A stretch of 64,000 nt of DNA. It comes from Candidatus Peregrinibacteria bacterium (GTDB lineage: Bacteria > Patescibacteriota > Gracilibacteria > UBA1369). The position numbers and the translations under genes are program-made. Within the stretch, counting starts at the first letter, position 1; every line of letters begins with the position of its first letter. Of this stretch, positions 13,901 to 35,470 are shown in pieces. The notes beneath the pieces are model-generated. The model did no database searches. It was not told the origin of the DNA and worked only from the letters and a program-made list of their open reading frames with translations. The DNA lies in NCBI GenBank assembly GCA_963708185.1, contig OY970195.1, positions 949,482 through 1,013,481 on the forward strand, in the 5' to 3' direction.

Positions 13901-15410
13901 TTCCATCCATTTCGATCTGGAACTGGGAAATGCGGGCCTGCTGCTGGCCAACGGTGATTTCATCAAGAGAACCGTTTGCAGTGAGGGTAGCAGTACCTAC
14001 TGTACCACCTGCAACAGTCATCAAGTTGCCGTAAAGCGGGAATGAACCGCCTACGCTGCTAGCATTTGTCGTGATAGCAGTCACAGCGTCGAGACCGAAG
14101 GAGTGCTGAGCAGCACCCTGAGCACCTACTGAAAGATCAGCAACCACGCAGAGTTTTGCCATACCACCAGCGGCAACGCTTACATTGATGTTGTTGAATT
14201 CAACGTTCTGAGTTTCAGAGTTGATCGTTCTGCCAGTTGTTAAACGAGCAGCATCGTTGTAAAGGTAGACGTTTGAGAAGTCACCCTGTGAACCAGGGCC
14301 ACTGCGGTGAACAACCAAAGATTGTACAACCGTAGCGTCGGAACCCGCGGAGAAATCCCAGCAGGTGAAGACGATACCGGAAGCACCCTTTGGAGCTGCC
14401 ATAGCAGCCGGAGTGTTCGGATCAAGAGCAACCGTCAAAGGACCGCCAACTCCAAGTGGGTTGTACCCATTGAAGTTTACGATGCCATTGTCGAGAGCTT
14501 TGCCGCTCGCAGACATCACACCGGTAACGGTGAGAGTATAAGGTCTGTTCGCAGTCTGTGAAGCTGTGGTCAAAGTGACCGTGTCAGCGCTCACGGAAGC
14601 AGCTGTTACAGCGAGGGTGTTGTTATTAGCATCCATAATGCTGTAGTTGGCTGGATCAGCACCGGTCGTAGGATCTACATCCTGGCTGAACATAACGTCA
14701 ACCATGGTTGCAGAAGTCGCTGAAGCTGTCTGAGCATTGAATGCGCCAGATGAGCCACGTGGTACTGGGTTCATGGCACCAACAACCATCTTCGCGATTT
14801 CAGCGCGGTTGATGTTCTTGCCAGGACCAAAAGTACCATCAGGGTAACCGTCAACAACAGAGTTGTTGTAGAGGGTTTCGATGAAGCTGTAAGACCAGCG
14901 ATCGGTTCCGACATCAGGGAAGTGTGGACCTCCGGTTGTGTCTGATGTCATAGCCATTGCGTTTACAGCCATCTTTGCGAACTGTTCGCGAGTGACTGAA
15001 TCGCCAGGGCCGAAATTGCCGGTAAGGTTACCAGCAGTATCTTTGTAACCGCTAACAACACCATTTTTAGCAGCGGTTTCAACATATTGATAATACCAAG
15101 CGCCAGGAGCTACATCCTTGAAGGATGGACCGGCAGAAGTGTCGATTGTCAAACCAGCAGCCTCAACGAGAAGCTTTGCAGCTTCCGCACGATTTGCGAG
15201 GTCAGCAGGTCTGTACATTGTCTGTGTGGTATCGAGGATACCAGCAGCAGCAAGTTGTTCTACATAGGTGTAGAACCATGCATCAGCTGGAACGTCTGTG
15301 TAGGTAGCCGCTTGAGCAACACCGCTTACCGCAAAAGATGCGAGCAATGTCACGATGCTAAGGCTAGCTACAAAACGGCGAGCTTTTTGCACACCTGTAG
15401 CAATATCCAT
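10926..15410 (-). CDS. S-layer protein with three N-terminal SLH domains
   Basis: 1494 aa. Signal peptide ..LLASFAVSGVAQA. SLH repeats are YTDVPADAWFYTYVEQL.., FKDVAPGAWYYQYVETA.. and FPDVGTDRWSYSFIETL..NRAEIAKMVV. The remainder is T/N/A/G/V/S-rich, nearly charge-free and beta-rich. Confidence 0.85.
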   Translation of the reverse strand: MDIATGVQKARRFVASLSIVTLLASFAVSGVAQAATYTDVPADAWFYTYVEQLAAAGILDTTQTMYRPADLANRAEAAKLLVEAAGLTIDTSAGPSFKDVAPGAWYYQYVETAAKNGVVSGYKDTAGNLTGNFGPGDSVTREQFAKMAVNAMAMTSDTTGGPHFPDVGTDRWSYSFIETLYNNSVVDGYPDGTFGPGKNINRAEIAKMVVGAMNPVPRGSSGAFNAQTASATSATMVDVMFSQDVDPTTGADPANYSIMDANNNTLAVTAASVSADTVTLTTASQTANRPYTLTVTGVMSASGKALDNGIVNFNGYNPLGVGGPLTVALDPNTPAAMAAPKGASGIVFTCWDFSAGSDATVVQSLVVHRSGPGSQGDFSNVYLYNDAARLTTGRTINSETQNVEFNNINVSVAAGGMAKLCVVADLSVGAQGAAQHSFGLDAVTAITTNASSVGGSFPLYGNLMTVAGGTVGTATLTANGSLDEITVGQQQARISQFQIEMDGSEDANLQRIALYVRGSIRPTDLSNLKLYSEDNATTPIATVDSITTNSLATFVPTAPYKIGRGQRKIFFVTADVKGRNGDDIKTYLDETTDLLMVGSTFGFGEQVNTAGFDGSAPANFSDVTVKGSAFNIAFNGPSAGDIAIGQQTAHCLDLTITNQAGDDVDIKDWKVNLAITSAVGPLNGLIDNTAGTANYTLIKLAEINSDGTLGGTLLGSNELSTAGSDSSQDVILSGDATIHSGESINAAVTVNVASNAAMDGDQLKCTLLNLVGQSDAVRDVNGDQLGANSITPNADIAGNLFNVSASGLTINLATTPTTQTYTRGTNDAALVGLALTSGSSLDNTLKSITLTGYVDNNQDGTFVAGAENGVQANNIVDNSVALYDGTTKISDFKNINAADGTVVFNNLNLVVPKGQTLNLTLKGHISNSAPFAPTGVTGNDIKFALTSNTNVTAIDQNGQTVASSAIVTNAQNGGLGAGSVVMTVAGSGSGTVATSSSSNSAALAGAQQVEVGRWTFTSVNENPTLKDMQFAVESTSGSTISNVKLYKNPNANLCGGGTQVGSVSGYVPTPVGTGAVVKITDLNEAVTSNATYTLCALATTGTVNTDGTTQPLSGSNIGLALLNLTKVTSGAGENIAPKYAGDLDPATTGVQTSALNVAMTTTLTAGHSTENIEFANPSTLTFTAGDVFNVDNEVMFYNGANVSTDPAVLPAANVIRGFANSVVASHNIGATVTRSTIAVASPAGTDVVQGDMYSNAAGTGYSLCVDPTLGGSTTVCDNAADTVVPVLGTGAAFLPAAGSARFPLHGNLSKLFRSIPQVANLVPVGAPAVSPNSNTVLLDMNVTAVGDQVKFAANGNVSNTAATIAGLSVDSGNQLVMKLSGNVALNASTCRLDKVTGGTQTLATVATAGGATEFVAFEFDTNGLTIANGTTVELQAICDTSTMVPSAGGNQVSASVVSDPLSLEWSDNVQQDILGAGAYIFQTAMQGYTAKVTT

Positions 15411-23535: not shown

Positions 23536-24985
23536 TTAGAGCTCTTTCTTCGGGCCAAAACTGCCTTTCGGGTACATATGGAGTTTGGACTTTTTCCAGG
23601 ATTCAATGATCGGCGTGATGAATTTCCATGACGCCAGCACTTCATCGGTGCTGGTAAAGAAAGTCTGGTCACCTTTGATGCAGTCGAAAAGAACGCGCTC
23701 ATAGGCGTCTACGGTTTTGACCGCACTTTTTCCTTCGTTGTAGCTGAAAGAAAGTTCATGCGGTTCAAGAAACGACTGAAGCCCCGGTTTTTTCGCCCAG
23801 AAAAGAATGGAGATTCCCTCTTCGGGCTGGATCTTGAACATGATGACGTTCTTGAAATCGCAGGTTTCATCCTTGGGACACAAATACGCGTTCGAACGCT
23901 TAAAATGTACGATGATTTCGGCCTTGCTTTCCTTCATGGCCTTGCCGCTTTCAAGGTAGAAGGGAACCCCCTTCCAGCGCTGATTGTTGATGAACGCTTT
24001 GATTTTGAAGTAGGTTTCCGTTTTGGAATTCTTGGCCACGGAAGGTTCTTCGCGATAGCCTTCATACTGTCCCCTCACGGTAGAACTCTGGACGTCTTTG
24101 TCTTTGATCGGCATGAGCGCGTTGAGTACCTTGGTCCTCGCGGGACGTACCGTCTGAGCATCGGTGCTCAGCGGGTTTTCCATGGCAATAAGCGCCAGCA
24201 TGCGCAGTATATGATTCTGCCCGACGTCGCGGAGAGCTTCCCACGTTATCGTAAAAAGCTCCTCTTCCTTCAACGTCGAGCTTTTCGTAAATCTTGATTT
24301 CAACTTTTTCAATGTAATCACGGTTCCAGATCGGTTCAAAAAGCAAGTTGGAGAACCTGAACATCATGATGTTCTGCAGTGTTTCCTTTGCCAGATAATG
24401 GTCAATGCGGAAAATCTGTTCTTCGCGAAAAAGTTTCCCGAGCATATGGTCGAGTTTTTTTGCCGATGCATCGTCATGTCCGAAAGGTTTTTCAATGAGG
24501 ATTCTTGTCCAGCCTTCACCATCACTGCAGGCGATGGTCAGACCATAATACGAGAGGTTCTTGAGAATGGTCTGGTAGAGATCCGGCGGAACGGCCAGGT
24601 AAAAAAGTTTGTTGGAGCAGCGCTTGAAACCTTTGGTGTCCATGGCAACGAGTTTCTTCTTGAGGCTCTTATAGCTTTGGGGATCGTCAAAATATCCTTC
24701 GTGGTAGGAAATGGTTTTGAGGAACTTCCTGAACTCGGGGCCTTTGAGGACCGGCAACTTGCGGCGTTTTTGTTCCTGTGTAATGAAATCACGGTATCCT
24801 TCGTCGGACATCGAACGCCTTGAAAAAGCTATGATGCGGAAATTTTTCGGGAGCATCCCTTTTTTATAGAGGTGGAAAAAAGACGGGATGAGTTTGCGGA
24901 TGGACAAATCACCGGTCGCTCCGAAAATGACGACTACCGTCGGCTTGGATGCGGCATACTCTTTTTTTATTTTTTTAATATCCAT
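23536..24985 (-). pseudogene. zwf: Glucose-6-phosphate dehydrogenase interrupted by a single-base frameshift
   Basis: The N-terminal ORF (VVIFGATGDLSIRKL.., RIDHYLAKETLQN, ..RGAFYDNVG) and the C-terminal ORF (ALRDVGQNHILRMLALIAMENP..) are in different frames. They join exactly at the conserved YD..GALRD motif if one base is removed at 24236-24244. Confidence 0.85.
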
Positions 24986-25090
24986 TGAAAATCTGGTGAA
25001 GATACCCGAAGTGCAATACAATTTCCGTGAATTCGTTATATATATACGATTGTTTGCCGCAAGTTACAAGACCCATTTACTACTACTTTC

Positions 25091-27601
25091 TTGAAGAAAT
25101 TTTCTTTCACCCAAGAGTTCAAAGCTTTCCTCAAAAAACACCGCATCGCTTCGATTTTTCTGCTGGCTTTCACCGCGCTGGTGATTTTCGGCATCAGTTT
25201 TTATCTCTACATCGCCTATTTTTTACCGCTTCCCGATGCGCTTATGCAGGACCAGCCCCAGGGCTCCATCAAGATTCTCGACCGCAAAGGACAACTTCTC
25301 TATGAAGTGATCCAGCCTACGGGCGGCAAAAAAACTTTCACGGAACTCACTCAAATTCCCAAAAATTTCGTCAACGCAACCCTGGCCTCTGAAGACATCA
25401 ATTATTATCAGCATGGCGGCGTCGATCTTGTAGCCATCGGCAGAGCGGTCTTTTTCAACGTCAGCGAAGGGAGGATTGTGAGCGGCGCGAGCACGATTAC
25501 CCAGCAGCTCGTCCGCAATCTGCTTGGTTACACCACGGAGCGCGGGTATTCCGAAAAGATCATGGAGGCCATCTATGCCATTCGTCTTTCGAACGTCTAC
25601 TCCAAAGACCAGATTCTCGAACTGTACCTGAACACCATTTATTACGGCAATCTCGCCTACGGTGCGGAATCAGCGGCGCAGGATTATTTCGGGAAACACG
25701 TTTATGATCTGGATCTGGCCGAGTCGTCGTTGTTGGCCGGACTCCCCCAGGCACCTTCCTACTACAATCCTTTCCTTTATATGGACCGTGCAAAAAAACG
25801 CCAGCAGTACGTGCTTGATCAAATGGTCAAATACGGATTCATCGACGATGCCACGTCAAAAGCCGCCGCCGCCGAGCCTTTGAAACTCCGCCAGAATATT
25901 TTTGAAATGAAGGCTCCTCACTTCGTACGGTACGTTCTCAACCAGCTCGGTGATGTCGTCGGCAACAAAAAACTTGAAGAAGGAGGATTCAGCGTGTACA
26001 CGACGCTTGATGAAGACCTTCAGCTGCAAGCCGAACAGATCGTGGCGCAGCAGGTAAAAAGTCTGGGCGACAAACATGTCACCGACGGCGCGTTGCTTTC
26101 ACTTGATCCGAAAACCGGAAAAATCCTGGCATGGGTCGGCAGCGAAAATTATTATAACGACGACATCGACGGCCAGGTCGACATGATCACGGCTCTGCGA
26201 CAACCCGGTTCCTCCATCAAACCACTGATGTATCTGCTCGCTTTGGAAAAAGGATATACGCCGGCAACGGTCCTTGCCGATGTTCCGGTTGAGTTTCAGA
26301 CCGACACAGGGCCTTATGCTCCAAAAAATTACGACCTGGATTTCCACGGCCCGGTGCGCCTGCGCGAGGCGCTGGCAAGTTCGTTCAACGTTCCCGCGGT
26401 CCAGACGCTCAACACGTTGGGGGTTGAAGTTTTCATGGCTTTTCTGGATAAACTCGGCATCCAGACGCTTGACCAGAATCCGAACTTTTACGGTCTCGCT
26501 CTCACGCTTGGAGGAGGCGAAGTGCGTATGTACGACATGGCGCGGGCGTTCAACGTCATCGCGAACTACGGCGATTATTTTGATTTGAGCACGATTGAAA
26601 AAATCACCGACGCCGCCGGGACGAATCTTTATACGTGGAAGCAATCCTCGCCTTCCTACGTTCTCGGGCAGGACGGAAGACAGCACGCGTACCAGATCAT
26701 CGACATTCTCAAAGACCCGAATGCCAGACTGAAAGGTTTCGGTGAGGGAAGCGTCCTGGAAATTTCCCACGAAGCCGCGGTGAAGACCGGGACCACACGC
26801 AACTTCCGCGACAACTGGACGATCGGTTTTACTCCGCAGCTTCTCACCGCGGTGTGGGTCGGCAATGCCGATGCTTCGGCCATGCAGGATATCAGCGGCG
26901 TGGACGGCGCGGGGCCGATCTGGCACGATTTCATGGAAGCCGCGCTGCAGTTTGCGCCCCAGGTAAAATTCAACGTGCCCCCGCGCCTCCATCAGGCGGA
27001 GGTCTGTGCGATCTCAGGAAAACTTCCGACGGACCTTTGTCCCGACCGGATCTTCGAGTGGTTTGTAAAAGGTCAGGAACCAAAGGAACCGGACGATTAT
27101 TATCAAAGTTACTGGGTTTTACGCTCGAACGGGCACCTCATCCGTCCGGAGTGCGTGGACAGCTATCCCGAGGCTGCCCGACTTCAAAAAACCTTTATCA
27201 CCTACCCAGCCGCCTTCCAAAGCTGGGCACAGCAAAAAGGCCTTTCCTTACCGCCTTTTGAGCCCTGTGCGTTATCAAAAACATCGGGTTCGGGATATAC
27301 GGACGCCTACTCCACGCAGGAAAAATCGCTTATTACCGTAGACAGTCCGTCTCATCAGGACCAATTCCAGGTTGACCATGAGCTTCCGGCGGATACTCAG
27401 AAAATACCGTTCCGGGTCACCGCTTCTTCGGATGTCGACGAGATAACTTTTTTGCTGGACGGCAAAGAACTTGCGACGGTGGGGCAACCTTTCAACTATT
27501 TGTGGATTCCCGAGAAAGGGAAACATACCCTTCAAGCCGTTTCACATATTTACAACGGTTCGACGCAGGAAAGTACTCCGGTAACTTTTGACGTTGAATA
27601 A
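25091..27601 (+). CDS. pbpC: Class A penicillin-binding protein, PBP1C-like (GT51 + transpeptidase + C-terminal beta domain)
   Basis: TTG start and an N-terminal TM helix. GT51 motif ASEDINYYQHGGVD. Transpeptidase motifs SSIKP, SFN and KTGTT. The ~120-aa C-terminal extension (..IPFRVTASSDVDEITFLLDGKELATV..YLWIPEKGKHTLQAV) resembles the PbpC C-terminal domain. Confidence 0.85.
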   Translation: MKKFSFTQEFKAFLKKHRIASIFLLAFTALVIFGISFYLYIAYFLPLPDALMQDQPQGSIKILDRKGQLLYEVIQPTGGKKTFTELTQIPKNFVNATLASEDINYYQHGGVDLVAIGRAVFFNVSEGRIVSGASTITQQLVRNLLGYTTERGYSEKIMEAIYAIRLSNVYSKDQILELYLNTIYYGNLAYGAESAAQDYFGKHVYDLDLAESSLLAGLPQAPSYYNPFLYMDRAKKRQQYVLDQMVKYGFIDDATSKAAAAEPLKLRQNIFEMKAPHFVRYVLNQLGDVVGNKKLEEGGFSVYTTLDEDLQLQAEQIVAQQVKSLGDKHVTDGALLSLDPKTGKILAWVGSENYYNDDIDGQVDMITALRQPGSSIKPLMYLLALEKGYTPATVLADVPVEFQTDTGPYAPKNYDLDFHGPVRLREALASSFNVPAVQTLNTLGVEVFMAFLDKLGIQTLDQNPNFYGLALTLGGGEVRMYDMARAFNVIANYGDYFDLSTIEKITDAAGTNLYTWKQSSPSYVLGQDGRQHAYQIIDILKDPNARLKGFGEGSVLEISHEAAVKTGTTRNFRDNWTIGFTPQLLTAVWVGNADASAMQDISGVDGAGPIWHDFMEAALQFAPQVKFNVPPRLHQAEVCAISGKLPTDLCPDRIFEWFVKGQEPKEPDDYYQSYWVLRSNGHLIRPECVDSYPEAARLQKTFITYPAAFQSWAQQKGLSLPPFEPCALSKTSGSGYTDAYSTQEKSLITVDSPSHQDQFQVDHELPADTQKIPFRVTASSDVDEITFLLDGKELATVGQPFNYLWIPEKGKHTLQAVSHIYNGSTQESTPVTFDVE

Positions 27602-27671
27602 ATTGTTGTAATACTTTTTCTGGAGAAATTGTTCTTAAGAGCGGCAAGATTCCGGGAGCCGTGATGACGAT

Positions 27672-27698
27672 GAACTTTTATTGTCTTTTCCTGTCATC
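27672..27698 (+). promoter_or_regulatory. Possible ECF-type (autoregulated) promoter
   Basis: The sequence is tGAACTT..GTCatc, with 17 nt between AAC and GTC, located 39 nt upstream of the sigma gene ATG. It resembles the generic ECF GAAC-N16/17-CGT/GTC pattern. Weak evidence. Confidence 0.3.
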
Positions 27699-27736
27699 AC
27701 CACTACAATTCTCTTTAGCGTTCCGCCCCAAGAACC

Positions 27737-28288
27737 ATGGATCTCCAAGATCAGCAAAAACTCGTTGCCGAAGCCCAGCAAAGTCCCGATGGATTCGGCA
27801 GGCTCTATGATTATTTCTTCCCGAAAGTCTACGCTTTTGTCGCCTCCAAAGTCGGCGACCGTGATGATGCCGAAGACCTCACCAGCGAAATTTTCATGAA
27901 GGTTCTCGAAAACATTCACGCTTATGAATGGAGAGGCATTCCCTTCGGAGGCTGGCTGTTCAAAATCGCACGGAACGTGCTGAACACTTACTATTCCCAG
28001 CACGCAAAGACAACGACCAAAGATATTGATGATGTGTACGGGCTCGCCGAAGACGAAGAAAAAACTTCGCCTCATAAAAAAGCCGCTCAAAACGAACTCT
28101 CAGAAAAGGTAAAAAAAGTCATGCGCGAACTTCCGGAAAGAGAAGTGATGGTTGTCCAACTCAAATTTTTCTCTCAACTCAACAACCGGGAAATTATGCA
28201 CGTTACCGGACTTTCCGAAAGCAACGTCGCGATTATTCTTTTCCGAACCCTGAGAAAAATAAAACCAGAACTTTCTTACTTTGCTTAA
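27737..28288 (+). CDS. ECF (sigma-70 family group 4) sigma factor
   Basis: 183 aa. Region 2 is GFGRLYDYFFPKVYAFVASKVGDRDDAEDLTSEIFMKV. The region 4 HTH is LPEREVMVVQLKFFSQLNNREIMHVTGLSESNVAIILFRTLRKI. Confidence 0.9.
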   Translation: MDLQDQQKLVAEAQQSPDGFGRLYDYFFPKVYAFVASKVGDRDDAEDLTSEIFMKVLENIHAYEWRGIPFGGWLFKIARNVLNTYYSQHAKTTTKDIDDVYGLAEDEEKTSPHKKAAQNELSEKVKKVMRELPEREVMVVQLKFFSQLNNREIMHVTGLSESNVAIILFRTLRKIKPELSYFA

Positions 28289-31200
28289 TCAACGGCCAAT
28301 GTTCTTCAAAAGAAAAAAAATCAGGCAATTGAACCAGATGCTCGACTCGGCCAAAAAACCACGCGACCTGGAAGAAGTGACCCGTGCCATTGAGGACACG
28401 GCGCCGGCTGCCGCTCGACCGGCATTCCAGAAACAACTTCGTCAACAATTACTCCATAAATACCACCCCATGGCCGCCGCCCATAAAGAAAAGAAAACAA
28501 AGGTTCACTCCTCCAATTCCGCACCGATGCGGGGAAAAGGCTGGGCTTTGGCCCTTGCCGTCCTGGTTATCCTCGTCGTTTCGGGCGTTGCCAGTTATCC
28601 GTTGATTCCGGCGCCGGAGGTCCAGGGCTATTCGCTCAAAGACACGGTCCGCAATATTTCCTACAATGCTCCGATCAAGGTCGTGTTCAGCCAGCCGATG
28701 GACCACAGTTCTGTCGAACAGGCTTTCAAGATCGACCCGAATATCGAAGGAACTTTTTCCTGGGAGAACAACAGCCTGCTCTTCATGCCCAAAGAACCTT
28801 TCAAACTCGGCGACAGTTTCAAGGTTTCCGTGAACCAGTCGGCTCGCAGCATTTTCCAGAAACAGCTTCCAGGCGATTACGAAGAGAATTTCGTTATCGT
28901 CGCGGCACCTCAGGTTACGCTGTTCTCCCCGGCGCCTGATTCCGAGGACGTTCCCGTGGACGCCAAACTGACGGTGCATTTTGACCGTCCGATGATCCCG
29001 TTGACGAGCCTTGATCAGGCCAATGAAAAAGCCATCAACATCAACGTCGATCCTCCGATCCAGGGCAAAGCCAAATGGCTCGGAACTTCTTCGATGTCTT
29101 TCATTCCGGACAAACTTGCCTACGCCACCCATTATACCGTGACGATTCCAGCTGGAACCTTGTCCGACGAGGGAGGATCCACCGACAAAGATTTTGTCTA
29201 CAGTTTTGATACCCTGAAACCCGCATTTGAAACTTCCGTTCCGGCCGACCTGGATCCTTTCAACGGACCGAAGACGACAATTGAGCTGACCTTCAACCAG
29301 ATCATGAATCTGGAGAAAGCCGGCGATTATATCAAGATTTACCAGTATGCCGGGAGCGACAAGGACTTCGCCAAAAAAATCCAATGGAACGGGAATGTGT
29401 ATGGGGCTCCATCCAAAAACGCCAAACTGTTGTTGACGGATACCGTCGTTGAACAGACCGACAAAGCGCAGTGGAAAGAAATCGGGAAAACCCTTCACTA
29501 TTATACGGCCGATGAATACAGACAGGATTATCTGAAGGACCAGCCCCAGGATGAGTCCAGTCAGACGCAGCAAATAGATGTTCCCGCGTCCGATGAACTG
29601 CAAAAAACTCTGGTGCTCGCGCCTTCTCAGCCGCTTGCCGAAGACAGTGTTTTCCTTGTCCAGATTCTCAAAGATTTTCCTGGAGCGGAAGGGACGTTCG
29701 GTTTGCCGGATGACCAGTCAATGATCATCAAGACGGTGGGGGCCCTGGATGTTGTTTCGACCTCCCCGGAGAACAACGCAAAAGATGTCCGCGATTCCGT
29801 GGTGAGCGTGACCTTCAACCAGCCCATGGACGAAGCCAGCCTTCAAGACAAAGTGATGATCGAACCGAAGGCGATGGACGACAACAATCAGGAACAGAAA
29901 CCCGAAGTTACGGTTTCCGGCGACGGTCTTGAAATGGACATCCATTATCCTTTCCTGCCTTCAACCAGCTATACCTTGACGGTCAAGCAGGGAGGAAAAA
30001 GTCTCTACGGAAAAAACTATGACAAGGATATCGTTGTCGCTTTCAAAACCGCCCAGCTCGATCCATCGTTCAGTCTGGTGAGCTCCCCGGACATCAGTGT
30101 GCTCGACGCCACGAAACCTCGTGTTTATTACGTAAAATCCACCAACGTCGATTTGCTCCATCTTGAGTTCAAAAAACTTTCCGACGACGAGTTCAATAAT
30201 TTCTACTCCAAAGGGTACGTGGATAACAACTATCGTCCGGACAGCGGATATACGTCTTTTGACGTGACACCGCAACGGGACTTCAACAAGAAGGTCGTCA
30301 CGAAGCTCGATCTGGATAAAGCTCTTGGAACCGCCTTAACTCCGGGCTACTACTATTTTGAAATGACGAGCCCGCAGGTGTTCAACACCGACTACAACGG
30401 CAATCGGCACCCTCAGGTTAATAAGCAGGTTTTCGTGCTGACGAGCAATGCTCTCGCCACGAAACTCAGCCGGAACCAGCTGCTGGTATGGGCGACTTCG
30501 ATGAAAGAAGGTGCTCCCGTGGAGGGGATGAACATCCAAGCAAAAAATACATCCGACGGAACGGTTTACAACGGCACGACGGATAAAGATGGTCTTGTGA
30601 CGTTCCAACTTCCACAAAAAGACAATAATGACTACACGGGTGAATATATGGTGACCGGGCGCGTCGGAGATGACGTGACGCTGACGCACTCGACCTGGTC
30701 GGAAGGCGTGAGCCCGTGGAACTTCAACATTGATTACAGTTCCTACGCCGAAAAGTATTTCGTCTACATGTATACCGACCGTCCGATTTACCGCCCTGGA
30801 GACGCGATCGAGTTCAAAGGACTTGTGCGCATCAACGATGATCTTCATTATTCGCTTCCCGACCGCAGCAAGATTCACGTCTCCGTTCATGATGCCGACG
30901 ACCAAGAGGTGTTCAGCAGGGATATCGACATCAACAAAAACGGAACGTTCAATGGAGAACTTCAGTTGGGGGATCAGGCTTCGACCGGCTACTACCAGAT
31001 TACCGCGTCGCTTGCGGCGGCCGGCGAACCAACATATTCGCATTCTTTTTATCAGAGTTTCCAGGTCGCAGCGTACAGGAAACCCGATTATAAAATGACT
31101 GTCACGCCGGACAAGGATTCCTACGTGAACGGTGAAACGGCAAAGGTGAACGTCAACGGACAGTATTTCTTTGGCGCGCCGCTCGCGAACGCTCCAGTCG

Positions 31201-34200
31201 AGTGGACCGTGAAGAGCCAGGATTATTATTTCTTCCTCCCGGCCGACAGCAAGAGCCCGTATGCGTCGCAATGGTTCAGTTTCAGCGATGAAGGGTACTT
31301 GTGTTTCTGGGGATGCCAGGGTCAAACCGAAGTCATCAGCCAGGGTAAGGGGACCCTTGATGCCAACGGTGATTTTACGGTCAACCTTCCGCTCGACATC
31401 AAGGACAAAAAAGTCAGTCAGTTCTATACGCTTGAAGCCACAGCTTACGATTTGAACCATCAGAGCGTATCCAACCGTTCGACTTTCGCGGTCCATCAGG
31501 GGGAATACTATGCCGGCATCATGAGCCAGGATTACGTTTCTTCAAAGGGCAAGGAGGCGAGCTTCGACGTCATCACCATCGATAAAGACGGCAACCCGGT
31601 TGCCGGAAAAACCGTGGACGTTTCGCTCTACAAACGTGACTGGAACACCATCAAGAAGAAGCAGGTCGACAGCGATTTCTACTATGACAACAACTACACC
31701 GACGTTCTCAAGGAAAAGAAGACGGTGACGACCGACAGCAAAGGGCATGCCACCGTGAGCTTCACTCCGAACGAAGGCGGCGATTATAAAGTGGGGACGG
31801 AATCGACCGACAGCCGGGGCAACAAGATCACATCGGCAACGGAGATCTACGTGACGTCTTCGGACTTCGTGAACTGGGGACAGGAAAACAACGACCGCAT
31901 TGAACTGGTTCCAGACAAGCAGGAATATACGGTCGGCGATACCGCACACATATTGGTGAAGTCGCCGTACCAGAACGTCTATGCGCTGGTAACGTATGAA
32001 CGCGCTGATGTGGTCTCCAAGAAGGTGATAAAGATCACTTCGAATTCCCAGACCATTGACGTGCCGATTACCGAGGACGCGCTTCCCAACGAGTTCGTTT
32101 CGGTACTGTTGGTCAAAGGCAACAATACTTCCGCCGGACTGCAGGATCCCGGGACTGAAGTCGACGAACGCGACGTCGCCGCATTCAAACTCGGATATAC
32201 AACATTGCAAATCAATACATCAACCCGCAAGCTCGGCATCGAGGTAACAAGCGACCAGCAAAAATATCATCCCGGTGACAATGTGGATTTGAAGGTTCGT
32301 ACGGTCGACGCTTCGGGCAAGCCCGTGAAAGCCGAGGTTTCGATCAGCGTGGTGGACGAGAGCGTTCTTTCGTTGACCGACAACGTCACCGCGGATCTCC
32401 TCACCGAGTTTTACCGCAAGCGTTACCTTGGCGTCGAGACTTCAGAAACCTTGACCAAAGCGTTGTCGCGTTTGAACGTCCAGGTGGAATCGGGTCTCAA
32501 GGGAGGAGGAGGAGGAACGCCGGCAAAACGCGGAACGTTCAAAGATACCGCATACTGGGAAGCCGACGTGAATACCGACGCCAACGGTATGGGTGAAGTG
32601 AAGTTCAAGCTTCCGGATAATCTGACGACCTGGCAGGTGCTGGCCATCGGCATCACCAACGATACGCTCGTGGGAAGCCAGCGCATGGATTTCGTTGTCA
32701 CGAAAGACGTCCTGGCGCGTCCGGTGCTTCCAAGGTTCCTGATCGTGAACGACAGCATGACGGTCGGAACCGTGGTCCATAACTATCTTGACCATGGCGT
32801 TGACCTGGATGTAGGGCTTCAGGCGAGCGGTGTCACGATCAGCGGCAGCGACAAACAGCGCATCCATCTTGATCCCGGGAAAGAGCAACTCGTGAATTTT
32901 AACGTCACGGTCCAGGACCAGCAGGAGGCCGACCTGACGTTCTCGGCCATTGATGCTTCCGACAGTTCGGTCGGCGATGTCGTGGAGAACAAACTGCCGA
33001 TCCATCCTTTCAGTTTCCCTGAAGTCGTGGCCACATCCGCCGAAGTTACCGACAATAGCCAACACGTGGAAACCGTGTGGCTGCCGACGGGAATCGATCC
33101 GAAGTTCGGCAAACTGACGATTTCGGCGGCTTCGACTTTGGCCGGTACTTTTGCCGACGGCATCCAGTATCTTGTCCAGTTCCCTTACGGCTGCGCCGAA
33201 CAGACCGCGTCTTCTTTGCTTCCGAACCTCGCCGTGAAAGAGCTCTCCAAACTTCCGGGACTTGGCGTCGAAAAACTGATCGATGAAAAACAACTCCAGA
33301 GGAACGTTGAGACCGGCCTGCAGGCTTTATACACATACCAACAAAGCAACGGAGGATGGGGCCTCTGGGAAAATTCCGAACCGACGCCGTATCTGAGCTC
33401 TTATGTGCTTTATACTTTGTACGAAGCGCAAAAGGCAGGGTATAGCGTCGACCAGAACGTCATAAAACGCGGCACCGACTACGTGAAGAACTCGATCAAG
33501 AACCTTCCGCTTTCCAAGGCAAACCGTTCCAATGCCGACAACCGGTCGTTTGCTTTATTCGTCCTCGCCGAGATGCAGCAGGGAGACCTTGGCCTCAGCA
33601 ACAATCTTTATGACTTCAAGGACAACCTCAACCTTTTCGGCAAAGCGTACCTGGTCATGACCTTCGACGACCTTATCAAGCAGCAGTCATTGAGCGGAAG
33701 CGTCAAAGACGACGCCGGGAAAAAAATGGATATGTTGAAAGGCGAGATCCTCAACGTGGCCAAAGAGACTCCGCGAGGTGTTCACTTCGAAGAAACGACC
33801 CCTGAATACACCATGTTCGACACCAACGCCCGCACGACAGCGCTTGTGCTTCAGATGCTTTCGCGCGTGGACAGTTCCAACGTGATGATTCCGAAAATTT
33901 TGAGGAACATGCTCATGGAAAAGAAGGACGGACATTATTCCACGACGCAGGAAACCGCCGTCAGTCTGCTGGCGCTCGCCGATTACCTCAAAGCCAGCAA
34001 AGAGCTCGAGCCGAATTATAACGGAGTCATCACGCTCAACAGCGTGGAAAAACTGAATAAGTCTTTCACGCAAAACAACCTGACTGACGTCCAGACCGTC
34101 GACATTCCTTTGACCGATCTGCTCCCGAACAATCAGGATAACGAGATAACGGCTTCCCGCAGCGGAACCGGCAAGATGTACTTTGATATGAACCTTCAGT

Positions 34201-34712
34201 ACTTCCTGCCGACCGATCAGATCCAGGCTCGCGACGAAGGCATTTTCGTGAACCAGGAATATTTCTCCCTGAACGACAAAAAGATGGAGAATCCGGTCAC
34301 GACGGTGAACGTCGGCGACAACCTCATGGGAAAAATGACCGTGATCGTTCCAGAGGACCGTTACTACGTGATGGTGGAAGATTATCTTCCGGCCGGGCTT
34401 GAAGGCGTAGACTTCAACCTGCAGACTTCTCAACAATCGCTCCAGGATACGCTGGATTCAAGCGGCGACCAGGCTCCGTGCATGAACTGGGATTGCTGGG
34501 AAGAGATGTGGAGATTCAACCATTCCGAGGTCCGGGACGACCGTATGATGTTCTTCGCCGACTACCTTCCCAAAGGCGTCTATGAACTCAAGTATGTCGT
34601 CAGGGCCACCACCGCCGGCACGTTCCATGACCTTCCGGCCCTTGCCCAAGAAACCTACTTCCCCGAGGTATTCGGCCGATCCAGCGGCAGGACATTTACG
34701 GTACTTCCATAG
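28281..34712 (+). CDS. Giant membrane-anchored alpha-2-macroglobulin (thioester protein) with N-terminal cytoplasmic segment and SbsA/Big_5-like Ig repeats
   Basis: 2143 aa from TTG 28281; the first ATG is at 28299. TM helix GWALALAVLVILVVSGVASYPLI (28539-28607). Repeated ..PI.V.FSQPMD.. Ig-like modules. MG-domain motifs DRPIYRPGDAIEFKG, AYRKPDYKMTV and LPDNLTTWQVLA. Thioester FPYGCAEQT (CAEQ at 33192-33203). Confidence 0.9.
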   Translation: MLNQRPMFFKRKKIRQLNQMLDSAKKPRDLEEVTRAIEDTAPAAARPAFQKQLRQQLLHKYHPMAAAHKEKKTKVHSSNSAPMRGKGWALALAVLVILVVSGVASYPLIPAPEVQGYSLKDTVRNISYNAPIKVVFSQPMDHSSVEQAFKIDPNIEGTFSWENNSLLFMPKEPFKLGDSFKVSVNQSARSIFQKQLPGDYEENFVIVAAPQVTLFSPAPDSEDVPVDAKLTVHFDRPMIPLTSLDQANEKAININVDPPIQGKAKWLGTSSMSFIPDKLAYATHYTVTIPAGTLSDEGGSTDKDFVYSFDTLKPAFETSVPADLDPFNGPKTTIELTFNQIMNLEKAGDYIKIYQYAGSDKDFAKKIQWNGNVYGAPSKNAKLLLTDTVVEQTDKAQWKEIGKTLHYYTADEYRQDYLKDQPQDESSQTQQIDVPASDELQKTLVLAPSQPLAEDSVFLVQILKDFPGAEGTFGLPDDQSMIIKTVGALDVVSTSPENNAKDVRDSVVSVTFNQPMDEASLQDKVMIEPKAMDDNNQEQKPEVTVSGDGLEMDIHYPFLPSTSYTLTVKQGGKSLYGKNYDKDIVVAFKTAQLDPSFSLVSSPDISVLDATKPRVYYVKSTNVDLLHLEFKKLSDDEFNNFYSKGYVDNNYRPDSGYTSFDVTPQRDFNKKVVTKLDLDKALGTALTPGYYYFEMTSPQVFNTDYNGNRHPQVNKQVFVLTSNALATKLSRNQLLVWATSMKEGAPVEGMNIQAKNTSDGTVYNGTTDKDGLVTFQLPQKDNNDYTGEYMVTGRVGDDVTLTHSTWSEGVSPWNFNIDYSSYAEKYFVYMYTDRPIYRPGDAIEFKGLVRINDDLHYSLPDRSKIHVSVHDADDQEVFSRDIDINKNGTFNGELQLGDQASTGYYQITASLAAAGEPTYSHSFYQSFQVAAYRKPDYKMTVTPDKDSYVNGETAKVNVNGQYFFGAPLANAPVEWTVKSQDYYFFLPADSKSPYASQWFSFSDEGYLCFWGCQGQTEVISQGKGTLDANGDFTVNLPLDIKDKKVSQFYTLEATAYDLNHQSVSNRSTFAVHQGEYYAGIMSQDYVSSKGKEASFDVITIDKDGNPVAGKTVDVSLYKRDWNTIKKKQVDSDFYYDNNYTDVLKEKKTVTTDSKGHATVSFTPNEGGDYKVGTESTDSRGNKITSATEIYVTSSDFVNWGQENNDRIELVPDKQEYTVGDTAHILVKSPYQNVYALVTYERADVVSKKVIKITSNSQTIDVPITEDALPNEFVSVLLVKGNNTSAGLQDPGTEVDERDVAAFKLGYTTLQINTSTRKLGIEVTSDQQKYHPGDNVDLKVRTVDASGKPVKAEVSISVVDESVLSLTDNVTADLLTEFYRKRYLGVETSETLTKALSRLNVQVESGLKGGGGGTPAKRGTFKDTAYWEADVNTDANGMGEVKFKLPDNLTTWQVLAIGITNDTLVGSQRMDFVVTKDVLARPVLPRFLIVNDSMTVGTVVHNYLDHGVDLDVGLQASGVTISGSDKQRIHLDPGKEQLVNFNVTVQDQQEADLTFSAIDASDSSVGDVVENKLPIHPFSFPEVVATSAEVTDNSQHVETVWLPTGIDPKFGKLTISAASTLAGTFADGIQYLVQFPYGCAEQTASSLLPNLAVKELSKLPGLGVEKLIDEKQLQRNVETGLQALYTYQQSNGGWGLWENSEPTPYLSSYVLYTLYEAQKAGYSVDQNVIKRGTDYVKNSIKNLPLSKANRSNADNRSFALFVLAEMQQGDLGLSNNLYDFKDNLNLFGKAYLVMTFDDLIKQQSLSGSVKDDAGKKMDMLKGEILNVAKETPRGVHFEETTPEYTMFDTNARTTALVLQMLSRVDSSNVMIPKILRNMLMEKKDGHYSTTQETAVSLLALADYLKASKELEPNYNGVITLNSVEKLNKSFTQNNLTDVQTVDIPLTDLLPNNQDNEITASRSGTGKMYFDMNLQYFLPTDQIQARDEGIFVNQEYFSLNDKKMENPVTTVNVGDNLMGKMTVIVPEDRYYVMVEDYLPAGLEGVDFNLQTSQQSLQDTLDSSGDQAPCMNWDCWEEMWRFNHSEVRDDRMMFFADYLPKGVYELKYVVRATTAGTFHDLPALAQETYFPEVFGRSSGRTFTVLP

Positions 34713-34733
34713 GACTTTTAAGGATTTTCAAAA

Positions 34734-34765
34734 GAACCCGGTCTTTCCACCGGGTTCTTTTTTTT
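34734..34765 (+). terminator. Rho-independent terminator after the A2M gene
   Basis: GAACCCGG (34734-34741), an 8-nt loop, CCGGGTTC (34750-34757), then a run of eight T (34758-34765). Confidence 0.85.
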
Positions 34766-34801: not shown

Positions 34802-35470
34802 ATGAAAAAAAAGAATAAAGAAAAATCTCTACGCAAAGAAATCCTGCGGAAACTTTTTCATCTGATGGAGGTGCCTGTTCTTATCGGTTACACCATCATC
34901 AGGCATTATTTCAATGAACGTCTCGCCACGCTCATCATCACCGTGCTTTTTCTCCTGCTGCTTGAAATCGAGTACATCCGTCTGGAATACCACCCAAAGA
35001 TCCCGGAAATGTTTGACGTCCTCCGCCATAAAGAACAAAACAACATTACCGGAACGATTTTTTTCATCGCCGCCACGATCATCGTGTTTGCGGCCTTTGA
35101 TTATCCTATCGCGGTGACGGCTCTTCTGCTGACGGTGTTCGGAGATCTCGCGGCGGCGCTGGTCGGCATCAAGTTCGGAACGATCTTTCTTCACAAGGAT
35201 AAAACCCTTCAGGGACTCTTGGCCGGCTTTACGATGAACTGCGTCATCGGGTATCTTTTTCTTCCCGACTACCCGCTCATTTTTATTCCAATGGCGGTGG
35301 TGGCGAGCGTCGTGGAACTGCTTACCGGCAAACTTGACGATAACCTGACCGTCCCTCTTTTTTCAGCATTCACGGGCCAGATTATGGCATACCTCACCAA
35401 CGCTCCCCTCACGACTTTCCCGGGACACGCCGTGGGATCGATCCTGAATTTCTTTGTCAATTTCCATTGA
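34802..35470 (+). CDS. CTP-dependent polyprenol/dolichol/phytol kinase-like membrane protein (CTP_transf_1 superfamily)
   Basis: 222 aa with ~6 TM segments. It has the N-terminal LRKEILRKLFH (RK..H) motif and the C-terminal VFGDLAAALVGIKFG motif seen in the SEC59/VTE5/DGK1-type kinase family. Assignment from memory. Confidence 0.5.
   Translation: MKKKNKEKSLRKEILRKLFHLMEVPVLIGYTIIRHYFNERLATLIITVLFLLLLEIEYIRLEYHPKIPEMFDVLRHKEQNNITGTIFFIAATIIVFAAFDYPIAVTALLLTVFGDLAAALVGIKFGTIFLHKDKTLQGLLAGFTMNCVIGYLFLPDYPLIFIPMAVVASVVELLTGKLDDNLTVPLFSAFTGQIMAYLTNAPLTTFPGHAVGSILNFFVNFH

What the first reader, a model, noticed from the sequence alone, without database searches (positions are those of the whole stretch)
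25091..34712. pbpC-type PBP paired with a 2143-aa thioester alpha-2-macroglobulin in an SLH/S-layer organism
Seen in the sequence:
- A class A PBP with GT51 motif EDINYYQHGG, transpeptidase motifs SSIKP/SFN/KTGT, and an extra PbpC-like C-terminal domain.
- An A2M with MG-domain motifs and an intact CxEQ thioester (GCAEQ, 33192..33203).

Established knowledge: A2M-pbpC synteny (E. coli yfhM-pbpC) is known from Gram-negative periplasms. It is interpreted as a protease trap paired with a wall-repair enzyme.

What is unusual here:
- The organism anchors envelope proteins through SLH domains (S-layer at 10926..15410, M23 peptidase at 50774..53131).
- The A2M is TM-anchored rather than lipidated.
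- It carries about 450 extra N-terminal residues made of four SbsA/Big_5-like Ig repeats.
- At 2143 aa it is longer than the ~1650 aa I recall for the E. coli protein.
Basis: partly seen in the sequence, partly recalled or inferred. Interest (0 to 1): 0.6.

Follow-up and report, generated by a model that had tools for sequence, protein, structure and literature searches.

The report
Wall-repair enzyme with sigma-wired protease trap
A tiny candidate-phyla-radiation bacterium with no sign of an outer membrane carries the known pair of a wall-building enzyme (PBP1C) and a protease-trapping alpha-2-macroglobulin, but here the trap sits on an Ig-domain stalk, is held by a membrane helix, and seems to double as the anti-sigma factor of a sigma-factor gene lying between the two genes, which could let the cell sense protease attack.

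Summary
ORF 25091-27601 is a PBP1C; it passes NCBI's PBP_1c cut-off and keeps all its catalytic motifs. ORF 28281/28299-34712 is a thioester alpha-2-macroglobulin (A2M) whose CAEQ aligns with the CLEQ of E. coli YfhM.

The genome is a 1.44-Mb single-contig Peribacteria/Peregrinibacteria (CPR) genome. It has SLH proteins and no Omp85/BamA.

The A2M-PBP1C pairing is the rule in this lineage. All 24 PBP1C-positive genomes among 151 of the order carry this A2M type. The same Big_5-stalked, roughly 2000-aa A2M is common in Chloroflexota.

- The A2M's 79-aa cytoplasmic N-terminus (three predicted helices) and this sigma are present or absent together: 10 of 10 mapped cases, at least 3 independent co-losses.
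- In a sister family the same sigma pairs with a roughly 270-aa protein made of that N-terminal domain, a TM helix and one Big_5 domain.
- A conserved ECF-type promoter (TGTAATAC-N15-TGTT) precedes the sigma gene in at least 15 genomes. In this genome it also precedes an SLH-protein gene and a lipoprotein gene.

Best reading: a surface protease trap fused to an anti-sigma factor, co-inherited with PBP1C. Sigma binding and protease sensing are inferred, not shown. I class it as a new variant of a known kind.

The parts
25091..27601 (+). pbpC: class A PBP of the PBP1C type. N-terminal TM anchor (residues 19-45), GT51 domain, transpeptidase domain, BiPBP_C C-terminal domain.
   Evidence: TIGR02073 scores 541 bits against a cut-off of 494. 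Pfam finds Transgly, Transpeptidase and BiPBP_C.
27607..27634 (+). Predicted ECF-type autoregulated promoter: -35 TGTAATAC, 15-nt spacer, -10 TGTT(C). It starts 5 nt after the pbpC stop codon.
   Evidence: The motif is conserved upstream of the orthologous sigma gene in at least 15 genomes with sigma identity of 45-86%, while the flanking DNA diverges. A variant, TGTAATAT-N15-CGTTAC, precedes the stand-alone pairs. In this genome all 3 full-motif sites lie 60-130 nt upstream of same-strand envelope genes.
27681..27709 (+). Sigma-70-like promoter TTGTCT-17-TACAAT in the sigma leader. It overlaps an inverted repeat (27661-27700).
   Evidence: This is a consensus scan hit only. The TACAATTC box is conserved in L001 and L002. 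Function was not tested.
27737..28288 (+). ECF (group IV) sigma factor, 183 aa, with sigma-2 and sigma-4 regions only.
   Evidence: Pfam finds Sigma70_r2 and Sigma70_r4. TIGR02937 sigma70-ECF scores 88 bits against a cut-off of 43. The best specific model is the BldN family TIGR02952 at 136 bits, below its cut-off of 206.
28299..28535 (+). Cytoplasmic N-terminal domain of the A2M (residues 7-85): three helices, basic. Proposed anti-sigma domain.
   Evidence: AF2 predicts helices at 2-16, 22-34 and 41-68 of the 109-aa query, with pLDDT 90-94 over residues 11-50. Codon-position differences of 18/7/40 and 18/9/30 show it is translated and under purifying selection. It is present or absent together with the sigma gene.
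28536..28607 (+). Single TM helix (GWALALAVLVILVVSGVASYPLI) with N-in/C-out topology. No lipobox.
   Evidence: It is the only hydrophobic window in the protein, with positive charge on the N-terminal side and no Cys before residue 1008.
28608..30050 (+). Stalk of four Big_5 Ig-like repeats (residues 110-205, 216-311, about 321-487 with an insert, 488-590).
   Evidence: Pfam Big_5 scores for repeats 1 to 4 are 34.2, 43.1, 16.5 and 59.2 bits. The third repeat is significant in Chloroflexota homologues, and P0090 has 4 Big_5 stretches.
30450..34667 (+). A2M body: bMG3, MG2, bMG6, bait-region domain (31899-32375), A2M domain, thioester domain, bMG10.
   Evidence: The Pfam hits all pass their cut-offs. 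It is homologous to E. coli YfhM/ECAM and the Salmonella A2M structures, with E-values of 1e-54 and 7e-47.
33192..33203 (+). Thioester motif CAEQ (C1638-E1640-Q1641).
   Evidence: It aligns with the YfhM CLEQ. C and Q are at least 90% conserved and E is invariant across 17 homologues.
34730..34761 (+). Intrinsic terminator (13-bp stem followed by a T run) that ends the sigma-A2M transcription unit.
34802..35470 (+). Conserved downstream neighbour: membrane protein of the diacylglycerol/polyprenol (dolichol/phytol) kinase family. It is a separate transcription unit.
   Evidence: Homologues carry PF01148 and are named dolichol, phytol or polyprenol kinase. It sits downstream of the A2M in 10 related loci, with and without the sigma gene.

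Best explanation
This is an envelope-defence module of a bacterium that shows no sign of an outer membrane.

Shown by sequence and comparison:
- a PBP1C gene;
- then an ECF sigma gene with its own conserved ECF-type promoter;
- then, 10 nt later, a thioester alpha-2-macroglobulin. The A2M is inserted in the cytoplasmic membrane by one helix and held away from it by four Big_5 Ig domains. A conserved 79-residue, three-helix cytoplasmic domain precedes the helix.

Inferred:
1. The ectodomain traps foreign proteases by bait cleavage and thioester capture, as E. coli ECAM does. Here that would happen in the wall/S-layer zone rather than in a periplasm.
2. The cytoplasmic domain holds the co-encoded sigma factor inactive, so it acts as an anti-sigma factor.
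Intramembrane cleavage by the genome's M50 site-2 protease is the likely route.
4. The sigma factor is then freed and re-induces its own operon. That replenishes the trap and switches on a few envelope genes (an SLH protein and lipoproteins).
5. PBP1C is co-inherited as the wall-synthesis partner, but it does not lie behind the ECF-type promoter.
For: Identity of the two proteins.

Envelope:
- SLH proteins are present.
- No Omp85 was found in a 99%-complete single-contig genome, while all 7 diderm control genomes matched.

A2M-PBP1C linkage:
- In 151 genomes of the order, 30 carry the large A2M and 24 carry PBP1C. All 24 fall within the 30 (Fisher p = 1e-22).
- Within the own family the table is 18/1/0/4 (p = 6e-4).
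- PBP1C lies within 10 kb in 12 of 12 Peribacteria loci and 9 of 25 Chloroflexota loci.
- It is adjacent in other CPR classes, on either side of the A2M.

Sigma/anti-sigma coupling:
- The sigma stop and the A2M start are 10 nt apart.
- The N-terminal domain and the sigma gene are concordant in 10 of 10 tree-mapped cases, with 3 independent co-losses.
- The wider A2M tree requires 5-6 changes in presence of the N-terminal domain.
- Genomes whose A2M lacks the domain have only paralogue-level sigma hits of 31-38% identity.
- Stand-alone pairs exist: a sigma gene plus a roughly 270-aa protein made of the N-terminal domain, a TM helix and one Big_5 domain.
- The promoter is conserved upstream of the sigma gene.
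- Full-motif sites lie upstream of SLH and lipoprotein genes in this genome and in relatives.

Other support:
- AF2 predicts a three-helix domain with mean pLDDT 81.
- An M50 protease is present.
- A terminator follows directly after the A2M.
Against: - No known anti-sigma family matches the N-terminal domain. Pfam finds nothing. NCBIfam NF052375 ('anti-sigma factor') reaches only E = 0.006, and only 5 of 27 members hit it weakly.
- Foldseek finds no PDB match.
- The domain has no HxxxCxxC zinc motif.
- The sign test on co-loss has only 3 contrasts (p = 0.25).
- One genome, G017, keeps the domain and the promoter but has no orthologous sigma gene nearby.
- The 12-mer TGTAATACTTTT alone is not enriched over its reversed control in 41 genomes (47 against 45 hits). 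The regulon therefore rests on the full two-box motif and its position.
- The bait region lies about 1100 residues from the membrane, so it is unclear how bait cleavage could trigger release.
- No expression, binding or protease data exist.
Confidence: 0.55

Rival explanations
1. This is an ordinary A2M-PBP1C defence pair. The ECF sigma is a neighbouring regulator with another anti-sigma partner or none, and the A2M's N-terminal 79 residues are only a cytoplasmic tail for anchoring, localisation or oligomerisation.
For: The N-terminal domain matches no anti-sigma family or fold. Many relatives work without either the domain or the sigma gene. G017 has the domain but no nearby orthologous sigma gene.
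Against: The domain and the sigma gene are lost together at least 3 times independently and are concordant in 10 of 10 cases. Stand-alone sigma/small-protein pairs have the same N-terminal domain, gene order and promoter type. The genes are tightly coupled, 10 nt apart. The domain is highly conserved and under purifying selection.
Confidence: 0.22
2. The large protein is mainly an adhesin of an episymbiotic CPR cell. The Ig/MG stalk reaches a host cell and the thioester fixes it covalently to the host surface, as complement-like TEPs or Gram-positive thioester adhesins do. The sigma factor would then report contact.
For: CPR bacteria are thought to live attached to hosts, and they invest in giant surface proteins. 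A2M-domain membrane proteins were noted in the predatory CPR Vampirococcus (PMC8080830). The protein is membrane-anchored and stalked.
Against: The full A2M architecture is kept, including the bait-region domain and bMG10. The strict co-inheritance with PBP1C matches that of free-living Gram-negatives, and the same type occurs in Chloroflexota, which are not episymbionts. The Vampirococcus authors themselves proposed a protease-defence role.
Confidence: 0.12
3. The sigma/anti-sigma pair is real, but the signal is not protease attack. The anti-sigma responds to general envelope stress or to a ligand of the Big_5 stalk, and the A2M is simply cargo that was fused to it.
For: The stand-alone version has only one Big_5 domain as its ectodomain yet keeps the same sigma gene and promoter. 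Sensing may therefore reside in the first Big_5 domain or the TM helix.
Against: The fusion is old and stable across several families of the order. The operon induced by the sigma factor encodes the A2M itself, which fits a feedback on trap supply.
Confidence: 0.11

Closest known systems
E. coli YfhM (ECAM)-PbpC and Salmonella A2M (PDB 4ziq, 5a42, 4rtd, 4u48)
   Same: Thioester A2M with MG domains, a bait-region domain, a TED carrying CxEQ, and a C-terminal MG10. It is genetically linked to PBP1C and anchored to the cytoplasmic membrane. It has been proposed to act as a protease trap paired with a wall-repair enzyme (PMC4498604).
   Different: Here the anchor is an N-terminal TM helix rather than a lipobox. 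There are about 470 extra residues: a cytoplasmic three-helix domain plus four Big_5 repeats. The organism has no Omp85, so there is no closed periplasm. The gene order is pbpC-sigma-A2M, and an ECF sigma gene with its own promoter lies between the two genes.
Pseudomonas aeruginosa MagD (mag operon A2M)
   Same: A bacterial A2M of the inner membrane or periplasm that forms part of a multi-gene envelope module.
   Different: From my own knowledge, MagD lacks the thioester and sits in a six-gene mag operon without PBP1C. The protein here keeps CAEQ and pairs with PBP1C. This comparison was not tested with tools here.
RsiV-SigV (Bacillus, Clostridioides) and RsgI-SigI (Clostridium thermocellum) anti-sigma factors
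   Same: Single-pass anti-sigma factors whose ectodomain directly recognises an external agent: lysozyme for RsiV, polysaccharide for RsgI. The sigma factor is freed by regulated intramembrane proteolysis and induces a matching defence or response. This is from established knowledge. An M50 protease is present here.
   Different: There is no sequence or fold similarity of the cytoplasmic domain. The ectodomain here is a 2000-residue suicide protease trap. The mechanism of release is unknown.
BldN-RsbN type ECF sigma (TIGR02952)
   Same: It is the best-scoring specific sigma model (136 bits). From my own knowledge, BldN's partner RsbN is also an anti-sigma factor unlike the classical zinc-binding ASD.
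   Different: The score is below the model's cut-off of 206. No similarity of the N-terminal domain to RsbN could be tested.
A2M-domain giant membrane proteins of the CPR bacterium Vampirococcus lugosii
   Same: Large (1895-2368 aa) membrane proteins with A2M domains in a CPR genome, suggested to protect against host proteases (PMC8080830).
   Different: That paper does not describe a PBP1C link, a Big_5 stalk, thioester status or sigma coupling.

Membership tests
Bacterial thioester alpha-2-macroglobulin (ECAM/YfhM type) | MG-domain keyring plus a bait-region domain | tested here: met
   bMG3 62 bits, MG2 84.5 bits, bMG6 45 bits, A2M_BRD 84.7 bits and A2M 66 bits all pass their cut-offs. The protein aligns to YfhM over residues 560-1779.
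Bacterial thioester alpha-2-macroglobulin (ECAM/YfhM type) | CxEQ thioester in the TED, aligned with the known thioester column | tested here: met
   FPYGCAEQTASSLLP aligns with YPYGCLEQTASGLFP of YfhM. The motif is conserved in 16 of 17 homologues.
Bacterial thioester alpha-2-macroglobulin (ECAM/YfhM type) | C-terminal bacterial MG10 domain | tested here: met
   bMG10 scores 109.8 bits over residues 1987-2129.
Bacterial thioester alpha-2-macroglobulin (ECAM/YfhM type) | Lipoprotein signal (lipobox Cys) anchoring the protein to the inner membrane of a diderm | tested here: not met
   There is no Cys before residue 1008. A single TM helix follows a basic cytoplasmic segment of about 79-85 residues. 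No Omp85 was found in the genome.
Bacterial thioester alpha-2-macroglobulin (ECAM/YfhM type) | Genetic linkage to pbpC | tested here: met
   The genes are adjacent in the window. 24 of 24 PBP1C-positive genomes of the order carry this A2M.
Bacterial thioester alpha-2-macroglobulin (ECAM/YfhM type) | Protease-triggered covalent trapping | not testable with these tools
   This needs a biochemical assay with the purified ectodomain.
PBP1C (TIGR02073) | Whole-protein score above the curated cut-off | tested here: met
   541.1 bits against a cut-off of 494.2.
PBP1C (TIGR02073) | GT51 and transpeptidase active-site motifs | tested here: met
   EDINYYQHGG, SSIKP (SxxK), SFN (SxN) and KTGT (KTG) are all present.
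PBP1C (TIGR02073) | BiPBP_C C-terminal domain | tested here: met
   PF06832 scores 32.8 bits against a cut-off of 26.8, over residues 744-817.
ECF (group IV) sigma factor | Sigma-2 and sigma-4 regions only, about 180-200 aa | tested here: met
   Sigma70_r2 and Sigma70_r4 are found. TIGR02937 scores 88 bits against a cut-off of 43. The protein is 183 aa.
ECF (group IV) sigma factor | Autoregulated promoter with conserved -35 and -10 boxes upstream of its own gene | tested here: met
   TGTAATAC-N15-TGTT is conserved upstream of orthologues in at least 15 genomes. Its activity was not tested.
ECF (group IV) sigma factor | Co-transcribed cognate anti-sigma factor | tested here: inconclusive
   Gene coupling, co-loss and the stand-alone pairs all point to the A2M N-terminus. 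No binding evidence exists.
Class I anti-sigma domain (ASD, zinc-binding zf-HC2 type) | Match to the ASD or zf-HC2 profile, or an HxxxCxxC motif | tested here: not met
   There is no Pfam hit and no Cys or His motif. Only weak NF052375 hits were found (E at or above 0.0016). Foldseek found no match. I therefore file it as working like an anti-sigma factor, not as a member of the family.
SLH-anchored envelope (monoderm-like, S-layer) | SLH-domain surface proteins and absence of outer-membrane biogenesis machinery | tested here: met
   SLH scores 102.8 bits in 10926-15410 and 51.8 bits in 50774-53131. No Omp85 was found, with positive controls matching. LPS genes were not searched.

The most novel reading that the evidence does not exclude
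A thioester alpha-2-macroglobulin serves as the sensory ectodomain of an anti-sigma factor. Consumption or clipping of the surface protease trap by foreign proteases frees an ECF sigma factor, which then re-induces the trap and a small envelope regulon. This would be the first A2M/TEP-family protein wired directly into transcription, and a protease-sensing immune-like circuit in a CPR bacterium with a minimal genome.
Probability: 0.35. Interest if true: 0.8.

Novelty: new variant of a known kind. Interest (0 to 1): 0.62.

Why it matters
Bacterial A2Ms are described as periplasmic devices of Gram-negative bacteria. I found no paper treating them in lineages without an outer membrane, and none linking an A2M to an anti-sigma factor.

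This locus shows three things:
1. The A2M-PBP1C partnership persists in lineages with no sign of an outer membrane (CPR, Chloroflexota). There it takes a distinct form: stalked, and TM- or lipid-anchored.
2. A 1.4-Mb genome spends 6.4 kb on it.
3. In one clade the trap is joined to a sigma/anti-sigma switch with a recognisable promoter and a small envelope regulon.

If the coupling is real, it offers a simple, testable model of how a cell measures protease attack on its surface. It also gives a rare handle on gene regulation in uncultured CPR bacteria. If the coupling is not real, the locus is still a clear marker set for a monoderm-type A2M subfamily.

Tried and rejected
- Family searches of the N-terminal domain found only sub-threshold hits. 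These covered Pfam and NCBIfam, the single sequence, 27 members and 3 stand-alone proteins.
- A Foldseek search of the AF2 model against the PDB gave no match.
- A profile search of the N-terminal domain over 1.84 billion representative proteins returned only 8 hits. These were A2M fusions, fragments of them, and one 358-aa stand-alone protein. The domain is therefore lineage-restricted, and its architectural diversity cannot be used as an argument.
- The 12-mer TGTAATACTTTT is not enriched over its reversed control in 41 genomes. I dropped the claim of simple enrichment and used the two-box motif plus its position instead.
- I looked for the ECF-type motif upstream of pbpC and found none. PBP1C does not lie behind a predicted ECF promoter.
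- I considered whether the N-terminal region might be an untranslated leader. I rejected this because substitutions fall mainly on third codon positions and the amino-acid sequence is conserved.
- A sigma/N-terminus complex could not be modelled, because the structure tool takes one native chain only.
- Literature searches for A2M with anti-sigma, Peregrinibacteria or Chloroflexi, and for ECF sigma in CPR, returned nothing relevant beyond PMC8080830, PMC4498604 and PMC4736985.
- The second structure-prediction job was not used.
Full report
**What is there**

The window holds two long same-strand ORFs at the stated coordinates: 25091-27601 (836 aa) and 28281-34712 (2143 aa as the longest ORF).

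The first is a class A PBP of the PBP1C type.
- Pfam finds Transgly (197 bits), Transpeptidase (77 bits) and the PBP1C-specific BiPBP_C domain (32.8 bits, cut-off 26.8).
- NCBI's equivalog model PBP_1c scores 541 bits against a cut-off of 494.

The second is a bacterial alpha-2-macroglobulin.
- Big_5, bMG3, MG2, bMG6, the bait-region domain, the A2M domain, TED and bMG10 all pass their cut-offs.
- Its closest solved relatives are E. coli YfhM/ECAM and the Salmonella A2M (E = 1e-54 and 7e-47).
- CAEQ at 33192-33203 aligns column for column with the CLEQ thioester of YfhM and is nearly invariant in 17 homologues.

Two small corrections apply.
- The conserved start is ATG 28299 (MFFKRKK; 2137 aa), not TTG 28281.
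- Of the four Big_5 repeats, the third is sub-threshold here (16.5 bits) because it carries an insert. The aligned repeat is significant in Chloroflexota homologues.

**The organism and its envelope**

The window lies in a single 1,437,033-bp contig that is 99% complete. Close homologues of the A2M come from Candidatus Peregrinibacteria/Peribacteria; NCBI labels some of them Gracilibacteria or Altimarinota.

SLH domains are confirmed in the 1494-aa protein at 10926-15410 and in the M23 peptidase at 50774-53131. A whole-genome search found no Omp85/BamA, while the same search matched in all seven diderm control genomes. I take this as a cell without a classical outer membrane. That agrees with published views of Peribacteria, which report peptidoglycan, S-layer and sortase genes (PMC4736985).

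The A2M has one TM helix (residues about 86-108), no lipobox cysteine, and a basic N-terminal segment. This gives an N-in/C-out topology. YfhM aligns only from about residue 560 onward. The extra roughly 470 residues are therefore the cytoplasmic segment, the TM helix and the Big_5 stalk.

**Is the pairing unusual?**

It is not unusual within these lineages.
- The roughly 2000-2200-aa Big_5-A2M family has hundreds of members in Peribacteria and in Chloroflexota (Anaerolineae, Caldilineae, Thermoflexales, Ardenticatenia, Chloroflexia, Dehalococcoidia).
- In 151 genomes of the window's order, 30 carry this A2M and 24 carry a PBP1C scoring at least about 468 bits. All 24 fall within the 30 (Fisher p = 1e-22, not corrected for phylogeny).
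- Inside the own family, the four genomes without the A2M also lack PBP1C (18/1/0/4, p = 6e-4).
- PBP1C lies within 10 kb of the A2M in 12 of 12 Peribacteria loci and in 9 of 25 Chloroflexota loci that have enough flank. It may be upstream, downstream or divergent.
- Across the phylum, 18 of 301 genomes have a bMG10-type A2M, mostly in 2000-2300-aa frames. In other classes a PBP again sits directly beside it, either downstream as in E. coli or upstream.
- Among the 14 named control genomes, bMG10 matched only in diderms. It did not match in Bacillus, Corynebacterium or Lactococcus.

The A2M-PBP1C partnership known from Gram-negatives (Budd 2004, as cited in PMC4498604) therefore extends, in a stalked form, to two lineages not covered by the Gram-negative literature. 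I found no paper that describes this.

**The gene in between**

ORF 27737-28288 is an ECF sigma factor. It has Sigma70_r2 and Sigma70_r4; TIGR02937 scores 88 bits; the best specific model is the BldN family, below its cut-off. Its stop codon is 10 nt before the A2M start.

I noticed this before reading the earlier notes.

The 79 residues between the A2M start and its TM helix are conserved across the Peribacteria clade: KKIRxL ... DLxxVVxAI ... PxxxxxFxxxLKxxLLxKH. Nucleotide differences from two relatives fall mainly on third codon positions (18/7/40 and 18/9/30). The region is therefore translated and under purifying selection. AlphaFold2 with 27 sequences predicts three helices (2-16, 22-34, 41-68; pLDDT 90-94 over residues 11-50), followed by the TM helix.

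**Evidence that the N-terminus is the sigma factor's partner**

1. *Concordance.*
   - Wherever I could see the context, an A2M with this domain has the orthologous sigma gene directly upstream. This holds for the window and for at least 15 other genomes, with sigma identity of 45-86%.
   - A2Ms that begin just before the TM helix have no such gene (G010, G018, G005, G099, L024, L004, L007). Their genomes hold only paralogue-level sigma hits of 31-38% identity.
   - On a tree built from the ectodomain alone, the domain's presence needs 5-6 changes.
   - For the 10 tree rows with known context, domain and sigma agree in 10 of 10, over three independent contrasts. That is too few for a sign test (p = 0.25).
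2. *Stand-alone pairs.* In a sister family (loci L127-L131) a 38-43% identical sigma gene is followed by a 268-330-aa protein; in the longest-ORF readings the two genes overlap. That protein consists of the same N-terminal domain, a TM helix and a single Big_5 domain. A 358-aa example was also found in the global profile search. This is the layout of an ordinary sigma/anti-sigma pair. The A2M version looks like the same anti-sigma factor with a much larger ectodomain.
3. *Promoter.*
   - Five nucleotides after the pbpC stop lies TGTAATAC-N15-TGTT (27607-27634). The motif is conserved upstream of the orthologous sigma gene in all these genomes while the surrounding DNA is not. The stand-alone pairs have TGTAATAT-N15-CGTTAC.
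   - In the window's own genome the two-box motif occurs three times, each 60-130 nt upstream of a same-strand gene. These are the sigma-A2M operon, a 504-aa protein with three SLH domains, and a 193-aa lipoprotein.
   - In relatives, full-motif sites precede lipoprotein or SLH genes.
   - A strong terminator follows the A2M (34730-34761). Sigma plus A2M therefore forms a two-gene unit, the classic shape of an autoregulated ECF operon.

**Evidence against**

- The domain matches no known anti-sigma family. Pfam finds nothing, and only weak sub-threshold hits to NF052375 appear.
- Foldseek finds no PDB match. The domain has no zinc motif.
- One genome (G017) keeps the domain and the promoter without an orthologous sigma gene nearby.
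- The 12-mer alone is not enriched over its reversed control.

I therefore say the N-terminus works like an anti-sigma factor and put the probability of that at about 0.6. I do not file it in a known anti-sigma family.

**How it most likely works**

Shown: the domain architecture, topology, gene linkage, conserved promoter and terminator.

Inferred:
- The ectodomain traps foreign proteases at the cell surface, as ECAM does, with the Big_5 repeats acting as a spacer through the wall.
- The cytoplasmic domain sequesters the sigma factor.
- Loss of intact traps after protease attack frees the sigma factor. The likely route is trimming followed by intramembrane cleavage. An M50 site-2 protease is encoded at C1:261040-262593.
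- The freed sigma factor then replenishes the trap and induces a few envelope proteins.

The step from bait cleavage to release is the weakest, because the bait region lies about 1100 residues from the membrane. The stand-alone version also shows that the A2M part is not needed for the switch itself.

PBP1C has no ECF-type motif upstream. Its link to the A2M is therefore co-inheritance rather than shared control by this sigma factor.

The conserved downstream gene (34802-35470) belongs to the diacylglycerol/polyprenol kinase family. It is a separate transcription unit. A role in lipid-carrier supply for wall repair is only a guess.

**Verdict**

- The pair belongs to known families and meets every sequence-level criterion tested, except lipoprotein anchoring and a diderm setting.
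- The stalked, TM-anchored subfamily in outer-membrane-less lineages, and above all its fusion to a sigma-coupled cytoplasmic domain, make it a new variant of a known kind.
- Interest: 0.62.

Noticed in passing
window 23536-25021 (-): zwf (glucose-6-phosphate dehydrogenase) is split into two overlapping ORFs. G6PD_N plus the start of G6PD_C lie in 24062-25021, and the rest of G6PD_C lies in 23536-24339. This is either a frameshift or a sequencing error.
   Followed up: partly
window 34802-35470 (+): A 222-aa membrane protein of the diacylglycerol/polyprenol (dolichol/phytol) kinase family (PF01148) is conserved directly downstream of the A2M in 10 Peribacteria loci, with or without the sigma gene. 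A strong terminator (34730-34761) separates it from the A2M.
   Followed up: partly
window 27661-27711 (+): The sigma leader holds an inverted repeat (GTGATGACG ... CTGTCATCAC) that overlaps a sigma-70-like promoter (TTGTCT-17-TACAAT). Relatives L001 and L002 have different inverted repeats at the same place and a conserved ACAATTC box. This may be a second promoter or a regulatory hairpin.
   Followed up: no
own genome C1:1069398-1070979 and C1:815130-815770 (outside the window): The only two other full ECF-type motif sites in the genome lie 67 nt upstream of a 504-aa protein with three SLH domains and 62 nt upstream of a 193-aa lipoprotein. These are the predicted regulon members.
   Followed up: partly
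L127-L131 (genomes G071, G087, G036, G062, G104): In a sister family, a sigma gene is paired with a 268-330-aa protein made of the N-terminal domain, a TM helix, one Big_5 domain and a coiled-coil or low-complexity tail. The promoter is TGTAATAT-N15-CGTTAC. This is a stand-alone version of the switch.
   Followed up: yes
L121/L133 (genome G017, C55:10930-17322): This is an exception. The A2M keeps the N-terminal domain and the TGTAATAC promoter directly upstream, but no orthologous sigma gene lies nearby. The best sigma hit in that genome is 34% identical.
   Followed up: partly
homologues P0067 and P0043: Two Peribacteria homologues have lost the thioester cysteine (PYGHTEA and PYGGTEQ) while keeping the rest of the protein.
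   Followed up: no
window 29241-29741 (A2M residues about 321-487): The third Big_5 repeat carries an insert of about 70-100 residues, rich in charged residues, in Peribacteria. The insert is absent from Chloroflexota homologues, which instead begin with a signal peptide or lipobox-like LGAC and a Pro/Thr-rich linker.
   Followed up: partly
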